A stretch of DNA of 64,000 nt, taken from Escherichia coli (lineage in GTDB: Bacteria > Pseudomonadota > Gammaproteobacteria > Enterobacterales > Enterobacteriaceae). The stretch lies in the NCBI RefSeq assembly GCF_030013595.1, contig NZ_CP122768.1. One strand, written 5' to 3'. The notes beneath the pieces were generated by a model. The model did no database searches. It saw only the letters and a program-made list of their open reading frames with translations, and had not been told where the DNA came from. The position numbers and the translations under genes were made by a program. Shown here piece after piece: positions 26,939-37,684 of the stretch (position 1 is its first letter; each line of letters opens with the position of its first letter).

Positions 26939-27052
26939 TATTCTATTAACAGCAAGGCAGTCACGCAAGAGAAAGAGGTGGGTATGAGGTGTTTGTGTCA
27001 TGTTTTCAGTTGGTTAACGCAATGTAATCAGGCATTTCCCCTGGCAGAGTGT

Positions 27053-27922
27053 TCAGAAGAAAATCCAGTTCCATACAGCGCGGGCAACAGAGACCACCGT
27101 GTCACGGACGACACGCAGAACCGTACGAGCCACAGAGGCAATACAGACGCTCTCCGCCGTGTCAAATATCCGGTCCACCGCACCGGTAAACTGTTCACGG
27201 GCCTGCCCCCGGACAGATTCCGTGCACAACTCGTCCTGCAGGCGGGTCATCAGGGGACTGGCGGCATGGTCGGGAAGTGCTGTCATGAGCGCACTGACCA
27301 GCGTATCCAGTTCCCAGCCGGTGCGGGCCGATACGGCCACAACCGGATGTACGGGCCGGAACAGCCGGAATACCGCATCTGTTTTCTCACGAATGTTCTG
27401 TTCCTGTGCGGGAGAAGGCTGAATACCTGCCATATCCCATTCATGGCAGGGCTCCGTTTTGTCGGCCTGCGTCACCACAAACAGCACCTGCTGATGTCCC
27501 CGGTGCAGGATGTGTCGCCAGAAATACTCATCCACAGACAGGGCACGGTCATCGGCTTTAATCAGCCACAGTACCAGGTCAAGTTCAGGCAGAATGTCAC
27601 GGTACAGGGCTTCATACTCTGCATCCCTGTCCCGGCTCTCGCCCACCCCGGGTAGGTCAGTGATAACCATGCTGTGACCATGGCCACTCAGACGGAAGCG
27701 CTGCGCTTCCCGGGTGCCGGCGTGAACATCACTGACCGGGGTGACCTCCCCCTGAAACAGTGCATTACAGAGTGAGGATTTACCGGCCCCGCTTTTCCCC
27801 ATAATGCCAATCACGGGTTCGTGGCTGGTGAGTTTGCGCAGATGTTCCAGGATGTGACGGGAAAGTGAGTAAGGAAGAGAAGAAAGTGGTTTTTCAATTG
27901 CCTCAATGGCATCAGACGGATT
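27053..27922 (-). CDS. YfjP/YkfA/YeeP-family GTPase
   Basis: Walker A GIMGKSGAGKSS, G3 DLPG, G4 TQADK; start set at MNPSDAIEAIEK; ORF track start 27964. Confidence 0.85.
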   Translation of the reverse strand, partial: NPSDAIEAIEKPLSSLPYSLSRHILEHLRKLTSHEPVIGIMGKSGAGKSSLCNALFQGEVTPVSDVHAGTREAQRFRLSGHGHSMVITDLPGVGESRDRDAEYEALYRDILPELDLVLWLIKADDRALSVDEYFWRHILHRGHQQVLFVVTQADKTEPCHEWDMAGIQPSPAQEQNIREKTDAVFRLFRPVHPVVAVSARTGWELDTLVSALMTALPDHAASPLMTRLQDELCTESVRGQAREQFTGAVDRIFDTAESVCIASVARTVLRVVRDTVVSVARAVWNWIFF

Positions 27923-28255
27923 CATACATGTATTCCCGGTGAAAAAAGACAAAACCCCGCGCACCGGAAAGGTGGCGGGGGATTCACGGAGATAATATCT
28001 GTCTGAAATTATTTAGGATGCAGGTATCTTCAGATAATCGCACCCCCAGAATTTTATTCTTAATAGTTGAATAGTGGTATTTGGTTTCCCTGAGAGAATA
28101 TAAAGATGAATCATGCTGTATTGAGTTTGATTCTATTTGTACTGAGACAGGTATCTTCATGATTATAATCAAAAGCCGGGTGGATTGGTCTGGCGCTAAT
28201 TATTTTCTCGAATAAACTCACTAATTATTGTAACCATCCCAAAGGAGATGATTTT

Positions 28256-30400
28256 ATGTATAATTGTGGTGAATCATATTCAGAATACGACATATCATTA
28301 TCTGACGATGAAAACTATAACGATGACTATTATCGTGAGCGCCCGTGCCCGGGAGAAGTTTTCGGCTATGATAATGATGTACCACGGTTTAGTAAGATTG
28401 CACGGTCTTATTTGCTCCACGTGGGTAGCCTTGACTGGACCAAGATAAATCCGGATATCTTTGGCTCCATGATTCAGGCAATTGCCGAAGATGAAGAGCG
28501 CGGAGAGCTGGGTATGCATTACACCAGCGTACCCAACATCTTAAAAGTTTTGAATCCACTATTTCTTGACGACCTGCGTGCACAGCTGGACGAGGCTGGT
28601 GACAATCCACGTATGTTGCTGAACCTGCGCAAACGCATTTCCCACATTCGTGTGTTCGACCCAGCGTGCGGTTCTGGGAACTTTTTGGTTATCGCGTATA
28701 AGGAAATGCGTGCCATTGAGGCCGAAATCAACAAGAGGCGCAGTGAGCCGGATCGTGCCTCGGATATTCCACTTACCAACTTTCGCGGGATTGAACTACG
28801 AGATTTCCCGGCAGAAATCGCCCGCCTTGCGCTTGTTATCGCTGAGTACCAATGTGATGTGCTGTACCGTGGGCTGCGGCTGGCCTTGGCTGAGCTTCTT
28901 CCTTTACGCAACGAAAATTGGATTACTTGTGGCAATGCACTGCGGCTCGACTGGTTAAGAATTTGTCCGCCAACGGGAACCAGTGTGAAATTACATGGTG
29001 ACGACTTGTTTGGATCACCGCTTGATCAGGCAGAGATTGACTTTGAAAATGAAGGAGGAGAGACATATATTTGTGGAAATCCTCCATACAAGGGTAGCCA
29101 AACCCAAACTGATGACCAAAAAAATGATCTAAAAGCCATATTCGAGAAACGCACAACTAATTGGAAGTCATTGGATTATGTTGCAGGTTGGTTTATGAAG
29201 GCTGTCGACTACGGTAGTCAAACTAACTCGTCTGCTGCGTTCGTCTCAACTAATTCCATTTGTCAAGGTAGACAGGTCGAAACCCTTTGGTCGTTGATTT
29301 TTGCAGCCAAGCATGAAATATCCTTTGCTTATACGTCCTTCAAATGGGCAAATCTTGCTAGCCACAATGCGGGAGTGAGTGTCATTGTTGTGGGAATTTC
29401 TAATCATGTTAAGGGCCCCCGGAAAATATTTTCCACAACTGAGGATTTGGGGACCATCATAAAAGAAGTAGACAACATCAATGCGTATCTTGTCGCGGGT
29501 AAAAGCACAATTGTTGCACAGCGAAGTTTTCCTTTATCCGAAGTAAGTGTAATGGATTTTGGTTCAATGGCGAACGATGGTGGTGGCCTTCTTTTTGACA
29601 GTTCAGAATCAAGTCGTGCAGTTAATGATTATGGTGCTGATATTTGTTATTTTCGAAAGGCTTGGGGAGCTAAGGAGTTTATTTCTGGAACTCCTAGAGC
29701 TTGCCTGTGGTTAAATAAAGACAGTGCTAAAAAAGCAATTCTGAACTCTTGGATTTCAGACCGAATTGAGATCACACGTAAGGCCAGAGCAAATAGTCCT
29801 CGGGCAGCGACAAAAAAACTAGCAGATATTGCTTACAGATTTGGTGAAGTGAGGCAAGACGGCAGCGAGCGAATCATTATTGTTCCCAGTGTCAGTTCTG
29901 AACGTAGGGAGTATCTTCCATGTGGTTATCTCGATGTTGGTTCAATCGTTATCGCTCCGAATCTTGCTTTCTATGATTCCCCGCTTTGGAATATGGCGCT
30001 TATTGCTTCTAGGTTGCATTTGGTATGGGTGGCGACAGTCTGCGGGCGTATCAAAACTGACTATCGCTACTCTAATACCCTTGGCTGGAATACTTTCCCT
30101 GTCCCACCACTCACTGAGAAAAACAAGGCCGACCTTACGCGTTGCGCAGAGGATATCCTACTGGCGCGGGAACACCACTTCCCTGCGACTATTGCGGATT
30201 TGTATGATCCCGCGAACATGCCCCCTGACCTGCGTGCTGCCCATGAACGAAACGACGAAGTGCTGGAACGCATCTATATAGGGCGACGATTCAAGAACGA
30301 CACTGAGCGGCTGGAAAAGTTGTTCGACCTCTACACGAAAATGATTGCTTCGACTGCACCGGTCAAAGGTAAGAAGCGCAAAGCAGGAAATAACGAATGA
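28256..30400 (+). CDS. N6-adenine DNA methyltransferase, gamma-class, MmeI/PglX-like, without nuclease domain
   Basis: 714 aa; strong SD aaaggaga 8 nt before ATG; SAM motif I VFDPACGSGNFLV at about aa 135 and catalytic motif IV CGNPPYKG at about aa 277; upstream HYTS helical region; about 430 aa C-terminal presumed target-recognition region. Confidence 0.8.
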   Translation: MYNCGESYSEYDISLSDDENYNDDYYRERPCPGEVFGYDNDVPRFSKIARSYLLHVGSLDWTKINPDIFGSMIQAIAEDEERGELGMHYTSVPNILKVLNPLFLDDLRAQLDEAGDNPRMLLNLRKRISHIRVFDPACGSGNFLVIAYKEMRAIEAEINKRRSEPDRASDIPLTNFRGIELRDFPAEIARLALVIAEYQCDVLYRGLRLALAELLPLRNENWITCGNALRLDWLRICPPTGTSVKLHGDDLFGSPLDQAEIDFENEGGETYICGNPPYKGSQTQTDDQKNDLKAIFEKRTTNWKSLDYVAGWFMKAVDYGSQTNSSAAFVSTNSICQGRQVETLWSLIFAAKHEISFAYTSFKWANLASHNAGVSVIVVGISNHVKGPRKIFSTTEDLGTIIKEVDNINAYLVAGKSTIVAQRSFPLSEVSVMDFGSMANDGGGLLFDSSESSRAVNDYGADICYFRKAWGAKEFISGTPRACLWLNKDSAKKAILNSWISDRIEITRKARANSPRAATKKLADIAYRFGEVRQDGSERIIIVPSVSSERREYLPCGYLDVGSIVIAPNLAFYDSPLWNMALIASRLHLVWVATVCGRIKTDYRYSNTLGWNTFPVPPLTEKNKADLTRCAEDILLAREHHFPATIADLYDPANMPPDLRAAHERNDEVLERIYIGRRFKNDTERLEKLFDLYTKMIASTAPVKGKKRKAGNNE

Positions 30401-32442
30401 ACAATAAAATCAAGAATGTACCTTCCGTTTCCGTTACTTATGCACGTAATGGCGCATCAACCAAAGCTAATGTGCTTGGGATGCGTCCTATGCAGGAGAG
30501 AGCTTATGAAAAGCGCGGCGAGCAGTACTTGCTTATCAAATCACCACCGGCATCAGGTAAAAGCCGCGCACTGATGTTCATAGCACTCGACAAACTCGAA
30601 AACCAAGGGATTAAACAGGCAATCATCGTTGTGCCGGAAAAATCTATCGGCGCGAGTTTCAACGATGAACCGCTATCGCAGTTTGGATTCTGGGCTGATT
30701 GGCATGTCGAACCTAAGTGGAACCTATGCAACGCGCCCGGTAACGACAACGGGGGCAAGGTAAGATCTTTTGGCTCTTTTCTTGAAAGTAGCGACAAGGT
30801 GCTTGTTTGCACACACGCAACCTTTCGCTTCGCGGTCGATGCCTATGGCGTAGAAGCGTTTGACGATCGCCTGATCGCCGTCGATGAATTCCACCATGTG
30901 TCAGCTAACCCGGATAACAAGCTTGGTCAGCATCTGGGGCAGTTCATCGCGCGTGATAAGACACACATCGTTGCCATGACCGGCTCCTACTTCCGTGGTG
31001 ATGCGGAGGCCGTTTTGGCTCCTCAGGATGAGTCCAGGTTCGATACCGTCACCTATACCTACTACGAACAACTCAACGGTTACGAATACCTCAAGCAACT
31101 CGATATCGGCTACTTCTTTTACAGTGGCTCCTACGTCGATGACATCCTTAATGTCCTCGATCCTGACAAAAAGACCATTATCCATATACCCAACGTCAAT
31201 TCGCGCGAGAGCACGAAGGATAAAATCAAGGAAGTGGAGCATATTCTTAGCGAGCTTGGCGATTGGCAAGGTGCGGATCCTGCGACTGGTTTCCAGCTAG
31301 TCAAATGCCTCGATGGCCGAATGTTGCGTATAGCTGATCTGGTGGACCCAACTAGTCAAGGCAAGATTCAGGAAAGCCTTCGTGCTGCAGAAATGAAGAC
31401 AGACCGTGACTATGTAGACATCATTATTGCACTTGGTATGGCGAAGGAAGGTTTTGACTGGATTTGGTGCGAACATGCGCTGACCGTTGGCTACCGTGCC
31501 AGCCTGACTGAGATCGTGCAGATTATCGGTCGCGCTACTCGCGACGCGCCGGGTAAAAACCGCGCAAGGTTTACTAACCTGATCGCCGAGCCGGATGCTG
31601 TTGAGGGGGCTGTCACCGAGGCAGTCAACGATACCTTGAAAGCCATCGCGGCAAGCCTGCTGATGGAGCAAGTATTAGCTCCGCGCTTCGAGTTCAAGCC
31701 TAAGAACCCAGAAAGTGGTCCGGCCCCAGGCTTTGATTATGGTGATGGTGGATATGACCCGGATAGCTGTAATTTTGGTGTTAATGAGCAGACAGGGACG
31801 TATCAAATCGAGATTAAGGGACTTGCCGAGCCCAGGAGCAAAGAGGCGGCACGCATCTGCCAGGAAGATTTAAACGAAGTGATCGCGGCCTTTGTGCAGG
31901 ATAAGCCCGCCATCGAACGAGGCCTGTTCGATGAAGAGCTGATTCCTGAAGAGTTAACTCAGGTTCGTATGGGTAAGATCATCAAAGAAAAGTATCCTGA
32001 GCTTGATGCTGAAGATCAGGAGGCTGTACGTCAGCATGCTATCGCCGCCCTTAACCTCACGCAGCAGGCCAAGCGTCTTGCCACCGACGATAACGATGGG
32101 ACGCTCAATACTGCTCTTATTGACGGAGTGCGTCGCTTTGCGATGGATGTGCGCGATTTAGACATAGACCTTATCGACCGCATCAATCCCTTTGGTGAAG
32201 CCTACGCTATCCTTGCTAAGACGATGAGTGAAGACAGTTTGAAGCAGGTCGCGGCGGCAATCTCGGCCAAGCGTACCTCGATCACACCTGAAGATGCCAA
32301 GGTGATCGCCAAGCGTGCCGCTGAATTCAAACGTGAACGTGGCCGCCTCCCATCGTTAACTTCGCCGGATGCTTGGGAAAAACACCTTGCTGAAGGTGCA
32401 GCTGCGTTTATGCGTTTTAGGGCGGAGGGACGTTATGAATAA
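30397..32442 (+). CDS. SF2 (DEAD/DEAH, ResIII-like) helicase with about 300 aa uncharacterised C-terminal extension
   Basis: 681 aa; ATGA overlap with MTase stop; Walker A SPPASGKSRA, DExH box IAVDEFHHV, motif III MTGSYF, motif VI QIIGRATRD. Confidence 0.8.
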   Translation: MNNKIKNVPSVSVTYARNGASTKANVLGMRPMQERAYEKRGEQYLLIKSPPASGKSRALMFIALDKLENQGIKQAIIVVPEKSIGASFNDEPLSQFGFWADWHVEPKWNLCNAPGNDNGGKVRSFGSFLESSDKVLVCTHATFRFAVDAYGVEAFDDRLIAVDEFHHVSANPDNKLGQHLGQFIARDKTHIVAMTGSYFRGDAEAVLAPQDESRFDTVTYTYYEQLNGYEYLKQLDIGYFFYSGSYVDDILNVLDPDKKTIIHIPNVNSRESTKDKIKEVEHILSELGDWQGADPATGFQLVKCLDGRMLRIADLVDPTSQGKIQESLRAAEMKTDRDYVDIIIALGMAKEGFDWIWCEHALTVGYRASLTEIVQIIGRATRDAPGKNRARFTNLIAEPDAVEGAVTEAVNDTLKAIAASLLMEQVLAPRFEFKPKNPESGPAPGFDYGDGGYDPDSCNFGVNEQTGTYQIEIKGLAEPRSKEAARICQEDLNEVIAAFVQDKPAIERGLFDEELIPEELTQVRMGKIIKEKYPELDAEDQEAVRQHAIAALNLTQQAKRLATDDNDGTLNTALIDGVRRFAMDVRDLDIDLIDRINPFGEAYAILAKTMSEDSLKQVAAAISAKRTSITPEDAKVIAKRAAEFKRERGRLPSLTSPDAWEKHLAEGAAAFMRFRAEGRYE

Positions 32443-33613
32443 TTCTGATTTAGACGATTTGGCAGCAGAACTTGCCGAGTTTGCACCACCTGAGAAGAAA
32501 AAAGGACGTCCAGCCAGCGAGGAACGCATCATAGCCGGTTTTGAAGAGATCCAGCGCTTTACTGAGCAACATGGGCGTGTCCCGCAACATGGCGAAGAGC
32601 GTGATATCTTCGAGCGTCTCTATGCAGTGCGGCTCGACCGCCTACGCAGTCTCCCAGACTGCCGTGCCTTGCTAGAGCCACTGGATCATCAGGGCTTATT
32701 AGCTGGAGGGGGCGATGTAGCGGAGTCTGCGGACGAAATTATCGATATCGATAACTTGGCTGCCGAACTGGCGGATGTTTCCAGCGAGGACGATATCACG
32801 GTCTTGCGTCATGTTCGTGCTAGCACCGAAAAGCGCGTTGTACAAGGAGTTGCGGATCGCAAGCCGTGCGAGGATTTTGATGCGTTCAAACCACTATTTG
32901 AGCAGGTACGCAATGATCTAAGTTCAGGGTTAAGAGTGACCCGACCTTTTGGGCAGTATGCAACGATTGAAGTGGGTCATTGGTTTATCCTGGATGGTCA
33001 AACGGCTTATGTGTCTGAGGAAGGTGAAGAGTTCGATTCTCCACAGGGGAAGAAAGATGCTCGGCTGCGTGTCATTTATTCGAATGGTACAGAAAGCAAC
33101 CTACTTCGGCTGTCATTGGTTCGTGCTTTGTATAAAGACGAAACAGCGCGTCGAATTACCGATCCAGACATGGGGCCTTTATTCAGCGATGCTCTAGAAG
33201 AGAGCGATCTAGAAAGTGGCACTATTTATGTGTTGCGTTCGCTATCTGATAACCCTTATGTAGCTGAACATCGTGATGTCATTCACAAGATTGGAGTGAC
33301 TGGCGGCAAAGTAGAGGCGCGTATTGCCAATGCGGAACACGATTCCACCTATCTGTTAGCGAAAGTCGAGGTGGTAGCTTCATACAAGCTTGCAGGCATC
33401 AACAGCACCCGGATGGAAAACCTGTTTCACAGGTTGTTTGCACCCGCAAGGCTTAACATTACCATTAACGACCGTTTCGGCCATCCAGTGCAGCCCGAGG
33501 AATGGTTTCTCGTTCCGTTATTCGTTATCGATGAGGCTGTTGCACGTATTAAGGATGGTAGCATCATTGGGTATGTTTATGACCCCATGTCTGCGAAACT
33601 GGTGAAGGCATAG
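32435..33613 (+). CDS. Protein with C-terminal T5orf172 / GIY-YIG-superfamily domain
   Basis: 392 aa; start ATG 32435 overlaps the helicase stop by 8 nt and has GGAGGG SD; C-terminus GTIYVLRS...HKIGVTGGKVEARI...ENLFHRLF...EEWFLVP matches the T5orf172/GIY-YIG pattern; N-terminus has two acidic repeats DLDDLAAELAEF and DIDNLAAELADV. Confidence 0.7.
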   Translation: MNNSDLDDLAAELAEFAPPEKKKGRPASEERIIAGFEEIQRFTEQHGRVPQHGEERDIFERLYAVRLDRLRSLPDCRALLEPLDHQGLLAGGGDVAESADEIIDIDNLAAELADVSSEDDITVLRHVRASTEKRVVQGVADRKPCEDFDAFKPLFEQVRNDLSSGLRVTRPFGQYATIEVGHWFILDGQTAYVSEEGEEFDSPQGKKDARLRVIYSNGTESNLLRLSLVRALYKDETARRITDPDMGPLFSDALEESDLESGTIYVLRSLSDNPYVAEHRDVIHKIGVTGGKVEARIANAEHDSTYLLAKVEVVASYKLAGINSTRMENLFHRLFAPARLNITINDRFGHPVQPEEWFLVPLFVIDEAVARIKDGSIIGYVYDPMSAKLVKA

Positions 33614-33650
33614 TGAAGTGACACACTGAATTTGGCCACCTGTTCTGAGG
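33614..33650 (+). repeat. IS3-family (IS911-like) terminal inverted-repeat-like sequence abutting the stop codon of the T5orf172 gene
   Basis: TGAAGTGACACACTGAATTTGGCCACC starts one base after the TAG stop; shares TGAAGTG...GGCCACC termini with the IR at 33838-33864. Confidence 0.5.
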
Positions 33651-33837
33651 TGAGTATATCACCTCAGAACAGCACAGGAATAAAAGATACTGATTTGAAT
33701 GTGCCTATACTTTGTGATGTGAGGATCAATGAATAGTAACCTGATCAAGATATGTTACCGTGGTGAGACTGGTGAAAGTGGTGAAAGTGATCTAAGAACA
33801 TTGATACTTGGTGAGATTCTATATATCTCACTATGAA

Positions 33838-34262
<425 letters not shown>

Positions 34263-34426: not shown

Positions 34427-36191
34427 ATATCACGAACGGTGCAATAGTGGTTCTTCCGCAACTTGGGTGGAAGAAAATGGATGAAACTTTCTGGTGAACA
34501 AGGATCTAAGCTGTTTTAAGTTATGGGCAACGCAATGCACTCTCTTAAGACACTTCTACAGTTACCTTGCGGATGGCGATGCAGTCGACAAATTATTAGC
34601 TCTGACGGTATCACCCTCCATCTCCACGGAAAACGCAAAACAGCACAATGTCCTGAATGCTCTAAGCGTAGCGACTCTGTTCATAGTTCTCGTCGGCGCC
34701 GGATACAGCATCTACCCTGCTCCGGGCAGACGCTATGGCTTGTATTTTCCGTCCGCCACTGGTACTGCCGTAACCCGGCTTGTTCACGTAAAATTTTTGC
34801 CGAGTCGCTTGCTCCCTTCGCCGGTTCACACCAGCAGTCTTCACAGGCGTTACAAAATTTACAACGTCAACTGGGATTAATAGCTGGAGGTGAGGCTGGA
34901 AAACGGGCTGCAACGGCAGCGGGTCTCCGTTGCAGTGCTGATACTCTTCTTCGCAGGGTTATCAATACCCCGGAGACGAAACAGTCAGGCGCGCCTCATG
35001 TCGGTATTGATGAGTGGGCGTGGCATCGGGGCCACTGCTGCGGTATGTTAATAGTCAATCTTGATACTCACCGTCCCCTCGTCCTGCTTCCCGGCCGTGA
35101 TCAGCGTACGCTGGCGACCTGGTTCAGAAAATATCCGGAAATACAGGTTGTCTCGCGTGATCGCAGTGGAGTCTATGCGACAGCAGCACGTGAAGGTGCA
35201 CCTCAGGCCAGACAGGTGGCCGATCGATGGCACCTGCTAAAAAATATTGGTGATGAGCCTGAACGAATGATGTACAGACATATACCTCTGATACGTCTTG
35301 TTGCCAGTGAGTTGTCACCAAAGAAATCACCTGAGCCAGAACTGTCTGTGCCTGCAGCATCGCTCCGTCGTCCGGAACGCCTTAAACAGCAAACCCGCAA
35401 AAAACGGCATCAGCGTTGGACAGAGGTTATGGCCCTGCATAACAAGGGATGTAGTTTCAGGGAAATATCCCGTATTACAGGCCTGTCGCGTGTGACAGTC
35501 AGTCGCTGAGTACGTTCAGGAACATTCCCTGAAATGTCAACCCGACCTCCAAAGCGAGGGCTTTTGGACCCATGGAGGGAGTGGTTAAAAGAGCAACGAG
35601 AAAGTGGGAATTATAACGCCAGCCGGATAATGGCGGGAAATGGTGGTCCGGGGGTTTACAGGCAGTGAAACCATTGTCAGGGATACTGTTGCCAAATGGC
35701 GTAAAGGCTGGATCCCACCGGTTACTACTGCCGTCAGACTTCCTTCAGTGTCCCGGGTAAGGCGCTGGTTGATGCCCTGGAGAATAATCAGGGATGAAGA
35801 AAATTATGCTTCCCGATTTATTAGTCTGATGTGTGAAAAAGAACCGGAGCTGAAAATAGCGCAGCAACTGGTACTCGAGTTCTACCGTATTCTGAAAACC
35901 CAAAATAAATCACAGCTTAGCAGCTGGTTCACTCGAGTCCACGAAAGCGGTTCAGCAGAACTTCGGCGCGTGGCTGCGGGGATGGAAGCTGATGCTGCGG
36001 CTATATGTGAGGCAATCAGCAGTCGCTGGAGTAATGGTGTTGTCGAAGGTCATGTAAATCGCCTGAAGATGTTGAAACGCCAGATGTATGGTCGAGCCGG
36101 ATTTGAACTGCTCAGGCAGAGGGTCATGAGTCCACTGGCATGAAAATCTCCACCCAAGTTGCGGAAGAACCACTTTTCATCCGTCGTTGAC
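34427..36191 (+). mobile_element. ISL3-family insertion sequence nested in IS66 tnpA
   Basis: Perfect 23 bp terminal inverted repeats ggttcttccgcaacttgggtgga (34449-34471) and tccacccaagttgcggaagaacc (36149-36171), extending imperfectly outward; removing 34427-36196 restores the IS66 tnpA frame. Confidence 0.75.
34523..36143 (+). pseudogene. ISL3-family transposase, disrupted by an in-frame stop and a frameshift
   Basis: Two ORFs (34523-35509 and 35640-36143); N-terminal zinc-finger-like HLHGKRKTAQCPECS and C-terminal WSNGVVEGHVNRLKMLKRQMYGRAGFELLRQRV typical of ISL3 transposases; TGA at 35507-35509 followed by a frame change. Confidence 0.75.
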
Positions 36192-36498: not shown

Positions 36499-36840
36499 AT
36501 GATAAATCTTCCCGCAGGCACAAAAATCTGGCTGGTTGCCGGTATCACCGATATGCGCAACGGCTTCAATGGTCTCGCCGCAAAGGTGCAGACAGCGTTG
36601 AAAGATGACCCGATGTCCGGCCACGTCTTCATCTTCCGGGGCCGCAGCGGCAGTCAGGTCAAACTGCTGTGGTCCACCGGCGACGGACTGTGCCTGCTGA
36701 CCAAAAGGCTGGAGCGTGGCCGCTTCGCCTGGCCGTCGACCCGCGATGGCAAAGTGTTCCTGACGCCGGCGCAGCTGGCGATGCTGATGGAAGGTATCGA
36801 CTGGCGACAGCCAAAGCGGTTACTGACGTCCCTGACATGT
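36499..36840 (+). CDS. tnpB: IS66-family TnpB (orf2)
   Basis: MINLPAGTKIWLVAGITDMRNGFNGLAAKVQTALKDDPMSGHVFIFRGRSGSQVKLLW...GIDWRQPKR matches IS66 orf2; ATGA overlap with preceding tnpA frame; 3' end merges into the truncation junction. Confidence 0.7.
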
Positions 36841-37684
36841 TGTAGCCCAGGTCTTCTTCGTTGATAAAGTTCACATCCAGAGGATGGATACTTCCTGTAG
36901 CCCGTAATATCGTCGGTTCAATATCCTGCACATTCATCGGGATCACCGATGCAAGAAAAGCCCATTGATCAGAATAAGGCTGGAAATTAATATCAACAAA
37001 AACGCTTCCCCCCGATGCACGCGGTCTTTTTTGCAGAGGTAACGCGATAAGATTACCAAATCCTCCTTTTGGCATAGTATCCTGATTAGGAAATAATCGG
37101 TCATAAGAACTCAATTGCAGCTGTCGGGTCCGGCTGCACGTATAGCTAATAATAGCAGTCCCCAGACGGCGAGCTTCGCGGGCCGAAACTCGTGAAGCAA
37201 AAAATATCCAGACATGCGCTCCCTGACGTGAGCGGGATATTTCCAGCGCAGCAGGTACACTCAGCTCATCACAGGCTCGCATGAACGCGGATGCATCCTT
37301 CTGCCATTCAGCTTTATCAAAATCAACAGCCAGAAAATAACAGGAATCATCTTCCAGCAACGGATATAACCCGGCAGTATGCGTGCCTGCCAGATGCTGG
37401 TAGATGACAAGATCAGATACAGGGAGTAACTGACGGTGCGTACAGTCCCCGCATTTTATCCGGGGTTTACCGCATATTCTCGCCTGCCATTCGTTAGCGC
37501 AGGCAGGAGAGTACCCTGATTTGCCGCTGGTTTTACTTTCCCAACGAAGGGCCCATATATCATCACGCCCACGAAACAACCGACGAAATAATGCAACCTT
37601 CTCGTCGGTGGATAATACGGAAACGCGCTGCACAGGGCTCGGCGGTTTACGTCGCCATTCCAAGTAATGAGACCAGACGGGCAT
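36841..37684 (-). pseudogene. Archaeo-eukaryotic primase (AEP / Prim-Pol)-like gene, 3'-truncated by the IS66 remnant
   Basis: N-terminal LFRRLFRGRDDIWALRWE, DxD motif FLAVDFDK, GAHVWIFF and GGFGNLIALP motifs; the last third of the listed 341 aa ORF is antisense IS66 tnpB sequence. Confidence 0.6.

What the first reader, a model, noticed from the sequence alone, without database searches (positions are those of the whole stretch)
30397..32442. Helicase has a roughly 300 aa C-terminal extension with no assignable domain, sharing a short motif with the downstream protein
Helicase motifs end near aa 380 (QIIGRATRD). The remaining region has no PD-ExK signature that I can confirm. Its end, FKRERGRLPSLTSPDAWEKHLAEG, parallels FTEQHGRVPQHGEERDIFERLYAV in the N-terminus of the third protein (F-x4-GR-[LV]-P ... 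[DE]-x-[WF]-E-[KR]-x-L). A shared module could mediate docking between helicase and nuclease.
Basis: seen in the sequence. Interest (0 to 1): 0.5.

Follow-up and report, generated by a model that had tools for sequence, protein, structure and literature searches.

The report
Matching end-modules on helicase and nuclease
The helicase of a known but poorly understood three-gene restriction-like system in E. coli has a conserved 290-residue tail of unknown fold, and the last 65 residues of that tail are a small helical module also found at the start of the neighbouring nuclease, which may hold the two enzymes together.

Summary

The shared motif is real. It is not significant pairwise (BLASTP E 5.9). 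AlphaFold gives the same helix, G-R-x-P loop, helix layout for both.

The locus is not new. It is the MmeI-like methyltransferase + YeeB-type helicase + YeeC-type T5orf172/GIY-YIG cluster described in 2009. The gene order was the same in 92 of 92 other loci examined. The closest Pfam signatures for the module are weak (PMBR, HA).

Docking is untested. Terminal position, a conserved mildly basic helicase copy facing an acidic nuclease copy, and an acidic linker favour a tether over DNA binding. In this window a 2.3-kb deletion has removed the methyltransferase N-terminus, so this copy is probably defective.

Interest is modest.

The parts
28256..30400 (+). Remnant of the MmeI-family DNA methyltransferase (714-aa fusion ORF). 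It lacks the first 253 residues of the intact 928-aa protein.
   Evidence: Pfam finds MmeI_Mtase, MmeI_TRD and MmeI_C only, with no MmeI_N or MmeI_hel. The PADLOC model PDLC03598 is matched from profile position 260 onward. ORF residue 40 equals intact residue 254.
28372..28375 (.). Junction of a 2,291-bp deletion, with 4 bp shared by both flanks. The deletion removed IS66 remnants and the 5' end of the methyltransferase gene.
   Evidence: blastn of the window against L001 (NZ_CP053211): window 27001-28375 = L001 5002-6376, and window 28372-34261 = L001 8668-14564. The junction is contiguous in none of 5,426 complete E. coli genomes.
30397..31578 (+). Helicase motor core, aa 1-394 (SF2, DEAD/ResIII type). 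The start codon overlaps the methyltransferase stop by 4 nt.
   Evidence: Pfam DEAD/ResIII at aa 29-196 and weak Helicase_C at aa 333-382.
31579..32442 (+). Family-specific C-terminal extension of the helicase, aa 395-681 plus the stop codon.
   Evidence: 826 cluster representatives match this region alone at E <= 1e-3; alignment A1. AlphaFold mean pLDDT 73.8. No specific PDB fold.
31687..31929 (+). Small alpha/beta subdomain of the extension (aa 431-511): three strands and two helices, confidently predicted.
   Evidence: Model residues 37-117, block pLDDT 82-95 apart from one block at 68.
31945..32085 (+). Helical pair of the extension (aa 517-563). It holds the invariant E and R of EAVRQH.
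   Evidence: Helices at model residues 123-138 and 144-169; block pLDDT 81-97 over residues 121-160, falling to 63 at the end. Invariant columns E148 and R151 of A1.
32086..32283 (+). Segment with strongly conserved sequence (DLDIDLIDRINPFGEAYAILAK) that is predicted with low confidence on its own (aa 564-629). It is probably ordered only against a partner or the motor core.
   Evidence: pLDDT 43-67 for model residues 170-235. Conservation is shown in A1 and in the H2 alignment.
32233..32424 (+). Helicase terminal module, aa 613-676: short helix, helix (aa 631-648), loop with G-R-L-P (aa 649-658), helix (aa 659-676).
   Evidence: hhalign query range 47-110 of the 115-aa tail. Helices H218-230, H237-254 and H265-282, with block pLDDT 80-94 over model residues 241-287. 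Pfam PMBR E 4.4e-4 when the segment is scanned alone.
32435..33613 (+). YeeC-type nuclease gene (392 aa; RefSeq 'GIY-YIG nuclease family protein'). Its start overlaps the end of the helicase gene by 8 nt.
   Evidence: RefSeq annotation in L001. 391/392 identical to WP_001065545.1.
32471..32704 (+). Nuclease N-terminal module, aa 13-90: helix (aa 27-46), loop with G-R-V-P (aa 47-57), helix (aa 58-72), short helix (aa 74-80), and the conserved LDHQGLL.
   Evidence: hhalign template range 13-76 (profile columns). AlphaFold pLDDT about 90 for aa 31-90. Foldseek against AFDB finds the same N-terminus in T5orf172, GIY-YIG and 'YeeC-like' proteins.
32705..32809 (+). Very acidic, low-confidence linker of the nuclease (aa 91-125). 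It contains a second copy of the acidic motif (IDNLAAEL; the first copy, DLDDLAAEL, is at aa 5-13).
   Evidence: pLDDT 46-49 for aa 91-112, where the model ends. Net charge -10 in the window and a mean of -6.4 across 18 homologues.
33218..33550 (+). T5orf172/MUG113 (GIY-YIG superfamily) catalytic domain, aa 262-372.
   Evidence: Pfam T5orf172 4.3e-11 and MUG113 6.4e-13 (positions shifted by 22 aa to the RefSeq start).

Best explanation
SHOWN. The three genes form one cluster of the type described for B. subtilis yeeA(dnmA)-yeeB-yeeC. They encode an MmeI-family methyltransferase/target-recognition protein, an SF2 helicase and a T5orf172 (GIY-YIG) nuclease. The genes are always in this order and overlap. 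The helicase carries a family-wide C-terminal extension of about 290 residues. The extension consists of a small alpha/beta subdomain, a helical pair, a conserved segment that does not fold confidently alone, and a terminal helical module. None of these resembles a solved fold. The terminal module (aa 613-676) is homologous to the N-terminal module of the nuclease (aa 13-75, structured to aa 90). The two copies lie on either side of the gene junction, about 75-80 residues apart in a notional read-through, like a tandem pair of one small domain divided between two genes.

INFERRED. The two paralogous modules pack against each other, or bind side by side on the methyltransferase. This would tether the nuclease to the C-terminal end of the motor through the nuclease's roughly 35-residue-plus acidic flexible linker. 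The three subunits would then act like a Type I / Type ISP restriction enzyme: the MmeI-like subunit reads the site and its methylation, the helicase translocates, and the leashed GIY-YIG domain cuts. I put the tether step at roughly 40%.

In this window the methyltransferase has lost its N-terminal 253 residues, which is the region proposed in the literature to contact the other two subunits. This copy is therefore probably not a working system.
For: System identity:
- Pfam MmeI_Mtase/TRD/C on the upstream ORF, DEAD/ResIII on the helicase, and T5orf172/MUG113 on the third protein.
- The same gene order in 80 of 80 genome loci, 6 of 6 distant metagenome loci and 6 of 6 plasmid loci including Bacillota and Actinomycetota.
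- AFDB relatives of the nuclease N-terminus are named 'YeeC-like protein'.
- The cluster type is described in PMC2731913, PMC7261158 and PMC9973331.

Module homology:
- 0 of 200 shuffles reach the score.
- Distant helicases carry near-nuclease versions of the motif, for example FIEQHGRKP.
- Predicted secondary structure matches: an 18-20 residue helix, a 10-11 residue loop starting G-R-x-P, then a 15-18 residue helix.
- There is only one copy per protein.

Tether:
- Both copies are terminal and face the junction.
- The genes overlap by 8 nt.
- The helicase copy has mean net charge +2.3 (window +5). The nuclease copy has -2.6 (window -3) and sits between segments of -3.6 and -6.4 (window -10).
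- The linker after the nuclease module is disordered.
- The second helix of the helicase copy has a conserved small-residue face, A-E-G-x-A-A, typical of tight helix packing.
Against: There is no direct test of any contact: no multimer model, no coordinates, no experiment. Because the modules are homologous, both could equally bind a third thing, such as DNA or the methyltransferase. The weak Pfam links point to repeat families that bind polymers: HA, reported to bind DNA, and PMBR, which binds pseudomurein. Net charge varies widely among homologues (helicase copy -7 to +6). No full-length helicase-nuclease fusion was found that would act as a Rosetta stone; the only read-through products are short, singleton and mostly frameshifted ORFs. 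In B. subtilis the homologous cluster showed no restriction or phage defence (PMC9973331), so even the overall function is established only for Vibrio homologues.
Confidence: 0.42

Rival explanations
1. The two modules are independent copies of a small nucleic-acid-binding accessory domain of the HA / homing-endonuclease-repeat kind. Each helps its own enzyme hold DNA. They do not touch each other.
For: One of 13 nuclease modules hits Pfam HA (PF03457) at 1.9e-3, and the window's own copy hits HNH_repeat at 0.13. The HA domain sits at helicase C-termini and is reported to bind DNA (title of Mills et al. 2013, reference 64 of PMC12191111). The signature F-x4-G-R-x-P followed by a helix carrying L-G/R-L also recurs in these families (recalled from memory for HA; seen for PMBR repeats in PDB 8z4f). 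The helicase copy is mildly basic.
Confidence: 0.28
2. Both modules dock on the same third partner, the N-terminal region of the MmeI-like methyltransferase that replaced the nuclease domain of true MmeI enzymes. That subunit would then recruit motor and nuclease separately.
For: Morgan et al. proposed that the N-terminal domain of these MmeI homologues interacts with the separate helicase and endonuclease subunits (PMC2731913). Intact methyltransferases of the family keep MmeI_N and MmeI_hel domains. Homologous modules could recognise similar surfaces.
Against: This needs two equivalent binding sites on one subunit, or a dimer. There is no evidence for contact. No related module or motif was found in the methyltransferase ORFs.
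Confidence: 0.15
3. The resemblance is convergent or due to chance: two unrelated amphipathic helix-turn-helix stretches that happen to share G-R-x-P.
For: Pairwise BLASTP is not significant. HMM-to-sequence scores are 5-9 bits, E 1-10. The segment is short and helical. Foldseek with the nuclease module returns no clear helicase C-terminus.
Against: The profile-profile score rises as diversity is added, up to P 3e-7. It exceeds all 200 column and block shuffles and the reversed control. The register, helix lengths and loop length agree. Both copies are conserved from Proteobacteria to Bacillota and Actinomycetota.
Confidence: 0.08

Closest known systems
B. subtilis DnmA(YeeA)-YeeB-YeeC cluster, i.e. 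MmeI homologues that lack the nuclease motif and are flanked by a helicase and a GIY-YIG protein (Morgan 2009, PMC2731913; Nye 2020, PMC7261158; PMC9973331)
   Same: The three gene types are in the same order: an MmeI-family methyltransferase with TRD and C domains, then a DEAD-type helicase, then a T5orf172/GIY-YIG protein. AFDB relatives of the third protein are named 'YeeC-like'. Both are horizontally mobile and sit in islands or on plasmids.
   Different: I did not compare directly with the B. subtilis sequences. The literature says that B. subtilis YeeB and YeeC lack stretches in their C-terminal parts (PMC9973331). The papers read here do not describe the helicase tail or the shared module. 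The window's copy has a truncated methyltransferase.
Type ISP restriction enzymes LlaGI/LlaBIII and classical Type I enzymes (HsdR-HsdM-HsdS)
   Same: They use the same set of activities: site-reading methyltransferase/TRD, an SF2 motor and a nuclease. In Type I enzymes the motor subunit is a separate protein that must dock on the methyltransferase, and from my own knowledge the C-terminal region of HsdR does this.
   Different: Type ISP enzymes are one polypeptide with an Mrr nuclease at the N-terminus of the motor (PMC3553950). Type I enzymes carry a PD-ExK nuclease inside HsdR. Here the nuclease is a separate GIY-YIG protein downstream of the motor. No sequence or fold match to HsdR accessory domains was seen.
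Pfam PMBR (PF09373, pseudomurein-binding repeat)
   Same: The first helix plus the G-R-x-P turn of the helicase module matches the PMBR model: E 4.4e-4 for the isolated segment, and 4 of 10 homologues at <= 0.1. Many homologous fragments carry PF09373 in precomputed tables. RefSeq names one homologue 'pseudomurein-binding repeat-containing protein'. The repeats of PDB 8z4f show the same F-x4-G-R-E-P.
   Different: PMBR is a 33-residue unit that occurs in tandem arrays in archaeal virus/prophage cell-wall enzymes. Here a single copy sits in a cytoplasmic DNA enzyme of bacteria that have no pseudomurein. The match covers only half of the module, and the E-value in the full protein is 0.019.
Pfam HA (PF03457, helicase-associated domain) and HNH_repeat (PF18780)
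   Same: Both are small helical accessory modules found on helicases and homing endonucleases. The nuclease copy has three predicted helices and an H-G-R-x-P turn. There is one sub-threshold HA hit (1.9e-3) and one HNH_repeat hit (0.13).
   Different: No hit reaches significance. The helicase copy never hits HA. No structural match to a solved HA domain appeared. HA usually occurs in several tandem copies within one protein.
MmeI (Type IIL restriction-modification enzyme)
   Same: The methyltransferase, TRD and C-terminal domains are homologous.
   Different: MmeI carries its own PD-ExK nuclease and needs no helicase (PMC2731913).

Membership tests
YeeA(DnmA)-YeeB-YeeC type cluster (MmeI homologue + helicase + GIY-YIG) | An MmeI-family methyltransferase with TRD, encoded immediately upstream | tested here: met
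   Pfam MmeI_Mtase 7.7e-116, MmeI_TRD 4.7e-73, MmeI_C 8e-18. The intact allele in L001 is 928 aa.
YeeA(DnmA)-YeeB-YeeC type cluster (MmeI homologue + helicase + GIY-YIG) | The methyltransferase lacks the PD-ExK nuclease motif of true MmeI enzymes | tested here: inconclusive
   In the window the N-terminus is deleted. In the intact allele I saw no D...ExK by eye in the first 130 residues. No alignment to MmeI was made.
YeeA(DnmA)-YeeB-YeeC type cluster (MmeI homologue + helicase + GIY-YIG) | A DEAD-type helicase gene directly downstream, followed by a GIY-YIG/T5orf172 gene | tested here: met
   The same order holds in 92 of 92 other loci.
YeeA(DnmA)-YeeB-YeeC type cluster (MmeI homologue + helicase + GIY-YIG) | Sequence homology to B. 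subtilis YeeB and YeeC themselves | not tested
   The B. subtilis sequences were not obtained with the searches run here. The only indirect evidence is UniProt names 'YeeC-like protein' on relatives at 56-67% identity and a Bacillaceae plasmid homologue at 45% identity.
YeeA(DnmA)-YeeB-YeeC type cluster (MmeI homologue + helicase + GIY-YIG) | Restriction or phage-defence activity | not testable with these tools
   The literature is mixed: no activity in B. subtilis, and defence in Vibrio crassostreae (PMC9973331 and its reference 35).
SF2 helicase | Walker A, DExH, motif III and motif VI present in order | tested here: met
   PPASGKS aa 50-56, DEFHH aa 163-167, TGS aa 195, QIIGRATRD aa 375-383. 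Pfam DEAD/ResIII.
PD-(D/E)xK or other nuclease fold in the helicase tail | Sequence or fold match to a nuclease domain | tested here: not met
Pfam PMBR (PF09373) | Match to the family HMM | tested here: inconclusive
   Helicase aa 628-653: E 0.019 in the whole protein and 4.4e-4 as an isolated segment; 4 of 10 homologues at <= 0.1. PF09373 is listed for many homologous fragments.
Pfam PMBR (PF09373) | Tandem array of repeats within one protein | tested here: not met
   There is no second copy in the rest of the extension (hhalign P 0.23 and 0.44). The second copy is on the neighbouring protein.
Pfam HA (PF03457) | Match to the family HMM | tested here: not met
   The best result is 1.9e-3, in 1 of 13 nuclease modules. 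There is no hit for the window's copy or for any helicase copy.
Pfam HA (PF03457) | Three-helix fold like the solved HA domain | tested here: inconclusive
T5orf172 / GIY-YIG nuclease | Match to the T5orf172/MUG113 HMMs with the GIY and YIG-like strands and a conserved Glu | tested here: met
   Pfam 4.3e-11 and 6.4e-13. GTIYVL aa 262-267, HKIGVT aa 284-289, EWF aa 356-358.

The most novel reading that the evidence does not exclude
The helicase C-terminal module and the nuclease N-terminal module are a paralogous pair that forms a specific heterodimeric latch. This latch would be the assembly principle of a very widespread three-subunit, MmeI-derived restriction/defence machine that has never been characterised mechanistically. 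It would be a split version of what Type ISP enzymes do in one chain. The conserved but unstructured DLDIDLIDRINPF segment and the acidic LDDL motifs would be further docking elements.
Probability: 0.3. Interest if true: 0.5.

Novelty: new member of a known kind. Interest (0 to 1): 0.3.

Why it matters
The YeeA/B/C-type cluster is common. More than 8,000 protein clusters at 90% identity match the helicase. It occurs across Proteobacteria, Bacillota and Actinomycetota, and 266 plasmid records carry it. Even so, how its three subunits assemble and cut DNA is unknown, and experiments disagree on whether it defends against phage.

PADLOC recognises only the methyltransferase and labels it a Type IIG restriction-methyltransferase, so such loci may be miscounted. 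A defined pair of homologous terminal modules gives a concrete construct to delete, swap or co-purify. The finding itself is a domain-level refinement of a known system, not a new kind of system.

Tried and rejected
2. Further copies of the module inside the extension. None found.
3. A copy of the module in the methyltransferase or in other neighbours. Only noise-level hits.
5. Structural cross-match. Foldseek of the nuclease module against AFDB50 returned its own family and no clear helicase C-terminus in the top 50.
6. Natural helicase-nuclease fusions as a Rosetta stone. A chimeric query found only short singleton ORFs, mostly with frameshifted stretches between the two modules. The word-based search also favours short proteins, so absence is not proven.
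7. The first attempt at search for related loci with the diverse alignment failed for lack of a conserved stretch. A closer subset worked but returned only relatives with at least 76% identity in the matched tail, so distant pairs had to come from metagenome contigs and plasmids.
8. Co-variation between the two modules was not attempted. The pairs are too few and too closely related to separate contact from shared descent.

Full report
WHAT IS AT THE COORDINATES

The window is E. coli DNA from an island beside an Ag43-type autotransporter and a YeeP-like GTPase. Three overlapping genes lie on the + strand:
- 28256-30400, an MmeI-family DNA methyltransferase;
- 30397-32442, a 681-aa helicase;
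- 32435-33613, a 392-aa 'GIY-YIG nuclease family protein'. This is the RefSeq start; the mechanical ORF begins at 32369.

The helicase is identical to WP_001060305.1, and the nuclease differs from WP_001065545.1 at one residue. The stop and start codons overlap by 4 nt and by 8 nt.

CHECKING THE OBSERVATION

The helicase motifs are Walker A at aa 50-56, DEFHH at aa 163-167, TGS at aa 195 and QIIGRATRD at aa 375-383. Pfam sees DEAD/ResIII at aa 29-196 and a weak Helicase_C at aa 333-382. After that there is only a sub-threshold PMBR hit at aa 628-653. NCBIfam, PADLOC, PHROGs and a sequence search of the PDB give nothing for the tail.

The tail is not a local oddity. Used alone as a query, aa 395-681 finds 826 cluster representatives at E <= 1e-3, down to about 35% identity, and it is present in every full-length relative.

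AlphaFold on a 36-sequence alignment (mean pLDDT 73.8) predicts four parts:
- a small alpha/beta subdomain, aa 431-511;
- a helical pair, aa 517-563;
- a stretch, aa 564-629, whose sequence is among the most conserved in the protein (DLDIDLIDRINPFGEAYAILAK) but which is predicted with low confidence;
- a confident terminal helix-loop-helix, aa 631-676.

THE SHARED MOTIF

F-x4-G-R-[LV]-P is at helicase aa 644-652 and at nuclease aa 42-50. As two single sequences the similarity is not significant (BLASTP E 5.9). A helicase-module HMM scores the nuclease ORFs at only 5-9 bits. Both segments are, however, strongly conserved within their own families.

Distant helicases carry versions of the motif that are almost the nuclease's, for example FIEQHGRKP against FTEQHGRVP.

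Profile-profile comparison gets stronger as diversity is added:
- P 8.8e-4 with about 80 close loci;
- P 4.7e-6, probability 86%, with 10 and 7 diverse sequences;
- P 3.1e-7, probability 93%, over 64 columns with 18 pairs that include Bacillota and Actinomycetota.

The observed score of 44.3 exceeds all 120 column shuffles (maximum 25.2), all 80 shuffles of 7-column blocks (maximum 28.3) and the reversed profile (11.9).

AlphaFold of nuclease aa 1-112 predicts helix 27-46, loop 47-57 starting G-R-V-P, helix 58-72 and a short helix 74-80, at pLDDT about 90. This is the same layout as helicase helix 631-648, loop 649-658 and helix 659-676. The rest of the helicase tail holds no further copy.

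I conclude that the two segments are homologous modules of about 65 residues, one per protein. They face each other across the gene junction and would be about 75-80 residues apart in a notional read-through, like a tandem pair split between two genes.

WHAT THE LOCUS IS

The upstream ORF has the MmeI_Mtase, MmeI_TRD and MmeI_C domains, and the third protein has T5orf172/MUG113. The order methyltransferase, helicase, T5orf172 nuclease was found in:
- all 80 loci recovered from one-genome-per-species contigs;
- six distant metagenome contigs;
- six plasmids from Klebsiella, Ligilactobacillus, Niallia, Arthrobacter, Acinetobacter and Alteromonas.

Both modules were present in every pair examined. 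AFDB relatives of the nuclease N-terminus are named 'YeeC-like protein'.

This is the cluster type that Morgan et al. described in 2009: MmeI homologues without the nuclease motif, 'invariably' next to a DEAD-type helicase (YeeB) and a GIY-YIG protein (YeeC). They speculated that it is a Type I-like system in which the methyltransferase N-terminal domain contacts the other two subunits (PMC2731913). In B. subtilis the methyltransferase DnmA is active, but no restriction or phage defence was seen (PMC7261158, PMC9973331). Deletion of the Vibrio crassostreae homologues increased phage sensitivity (reported in PMC9973331, reference 35). I did not compare directly with the B. subtilis proteins.

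NEAREST KNOWN FAMILIES FOR THE MODULE

The helicase copy, scanned as an isolated segment, hits Pfam PMBR (pseudomurein-binding repeat) at 4.4e-4, and 4 of 10 homologues hit it at <= 0.1. Many homologous fragments carry PF09373 in precomputed tables. RefSeq even names one homologue 'pseudomurein-binding repeat-containing protein'. The PMBR repeats of PDB 8z4f show the same F-x4-G-R-E-P.

HOW IT MOST LIKELY WORKS

Three things are shown: a known three-gene system, a conserved tail of unknown fold, and a homologous terminal module on two adjacent subunits.

My preferred inference, at about 40%, is that the pair serves assembly. The modules would pack against each other, or sit side by side on the methyltransferase, so that the GIY-YIG domain is leashed to the C-terminal end of the motor. 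The reasons are these:
- Both copies are at the termini that face each other.
- The helicase copy is on average mildly basic (+2.3; window +5). The nuclease copy is acidic (-2.6; window -3) and lies between very acidic segments (-3.6 and -6.4; window -10). This speaks against DNA binding by the nuclease copy and fits charge-complementary pairing.
- The segment after the nuclease module is disordered and acidic, like a flexible leash.
- The second helix of the helicase copy has a conserved A-E-G-x-A-A face typical of tight helix packing.

The main rival, at about 28%, is that these are independent HA-like DNA-binding modules. The HA domain is reported to bind DNA (title cited in PMC12191111, reference 64). 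A third possibility, at about 15%, is separate docking of each module on the methyltransferase N-terminus, as Morgan et al. proposed. Chance or convergence is now unlikely (about 8%). None of this could be tested directly, because no multimer prediction or coordinates were available.

STATE OF THIS PARTICULAR COPY

Compared with 67 complete E. coli genomes that carry the whole cluster, the window lacks 2,291 bp (L001 6377-8667). The junction is at window 28372-28375. The deletion removed IS66 remnants and the first 253 codons of the methyltransferase. It fused the remainder to the first 39-40 codons of a small upstream ORF. The MmeI_N and MmeI_hel domains are gone.

This junction is not present in any of 5,426 complete E. 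coli genomes. If the N-terminal region is the platform for the other subunits, this copy is probably inactive. The helicase and nuclease genes themselves are intact.

NOVELTY AND VERDICT

The genes and the cluster type are known and annotated. The helicase tail and the matched modules are, as far as the papers I could read show, undescribed. They give a practical handle on how this widespread system assembles. This is a domain-level refinement and not a new kind of system, so interest is modest (0.3).

Noticed in passing
window 28256-30400; junction at 28372-28375: The methyltransferase gene is 5'-truncated by a 2,291-bp deletion and fused in frame to the first 39-40 codons of a small upstream ORF. 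The MmeI_N and MmeI_hel domains are lost. The junction occurs in none of 5,426 complete E. coli genomes.
   Followed up: yes
window 28256-33613: PADLOC recognises only the methyltransferase, as a 'Type IIG restriction enzyme-methyltransferase' (E 9e-226). It has no model for the helicase or the T5orf172 nuclease, so defence-system finders may mislabel or miss this three-gene system.
   Followed up: partly
window 32447-32473 and 32747-32770 (nuclease aa 5-13 and 105-112): A short acidic amphipathic motif (DLDDLAAEL / IDNLAAEL; LDDIL-x-DD in distant relatives) occurs twice, once before and once after the helical module. It is conserved across the family. It may be a short docking motif.
   Followed up: partly
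window 32086-32283 (helicase aa 564-629): The best-conserved sequence of the tail (DLDIDLIDRINPFGEAYAILAK) is predicted with pLDDT below 50-67 in isolation. This suggests that it folds only against the motor core or a partner.
   Followed up: partly
L092 6424-6711 and 6716-7630 (Acinetobacter lwoffii plasmid pAL_065-2): Here the nuclease N-terminal module is a separate 95-aa ORF, followed by a 304-aa GIY-YIG ORF that starts at the second acidic motif. The methyltransferase in this locus is also fragmented, so the locus is probably decaying.
   Followed up: partly
hit H26, Sulfitobacter pontiacus plasmid NZ_CP139705.1 11906-13945: A 76% identical helicase homologue is annotated in RefSeq as 'pseudomurein-binding repeat-containing protein'. 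This name comes from the terminal module and is misleading for a bacterial DNA enzyme.
   Followed up: no
L084 4631-7446: A distant homologous helicase-nuclease pair lies next to a CBASS operon (SMODS, E2-CBASS, SAVED), which is a defence-island context.
   Followed up: no
window 34523-36143 (+), 36499-36864 (+), 36659-37684 (-): Downstream of the cluster there is an ISL3-family transposase split into two ORFs, an ORF that from its sequence I take to be an IS66 TnpB (not tested), and a 341-aa fragment with a primase-polymerase (PrimPol) domain apparently cut by the insertion.
   Followed up: partly
P0437 (NCBI, 214 aa) and P0391, P0392, P0466, P0438: A few short, singleton ORFs read from the helicase terminal module straight into the nuclease N-terminal module. 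P0437 is clean across the junction but is frameshifted further on. No full-length fusion protein was seen.
   Followed up: partly
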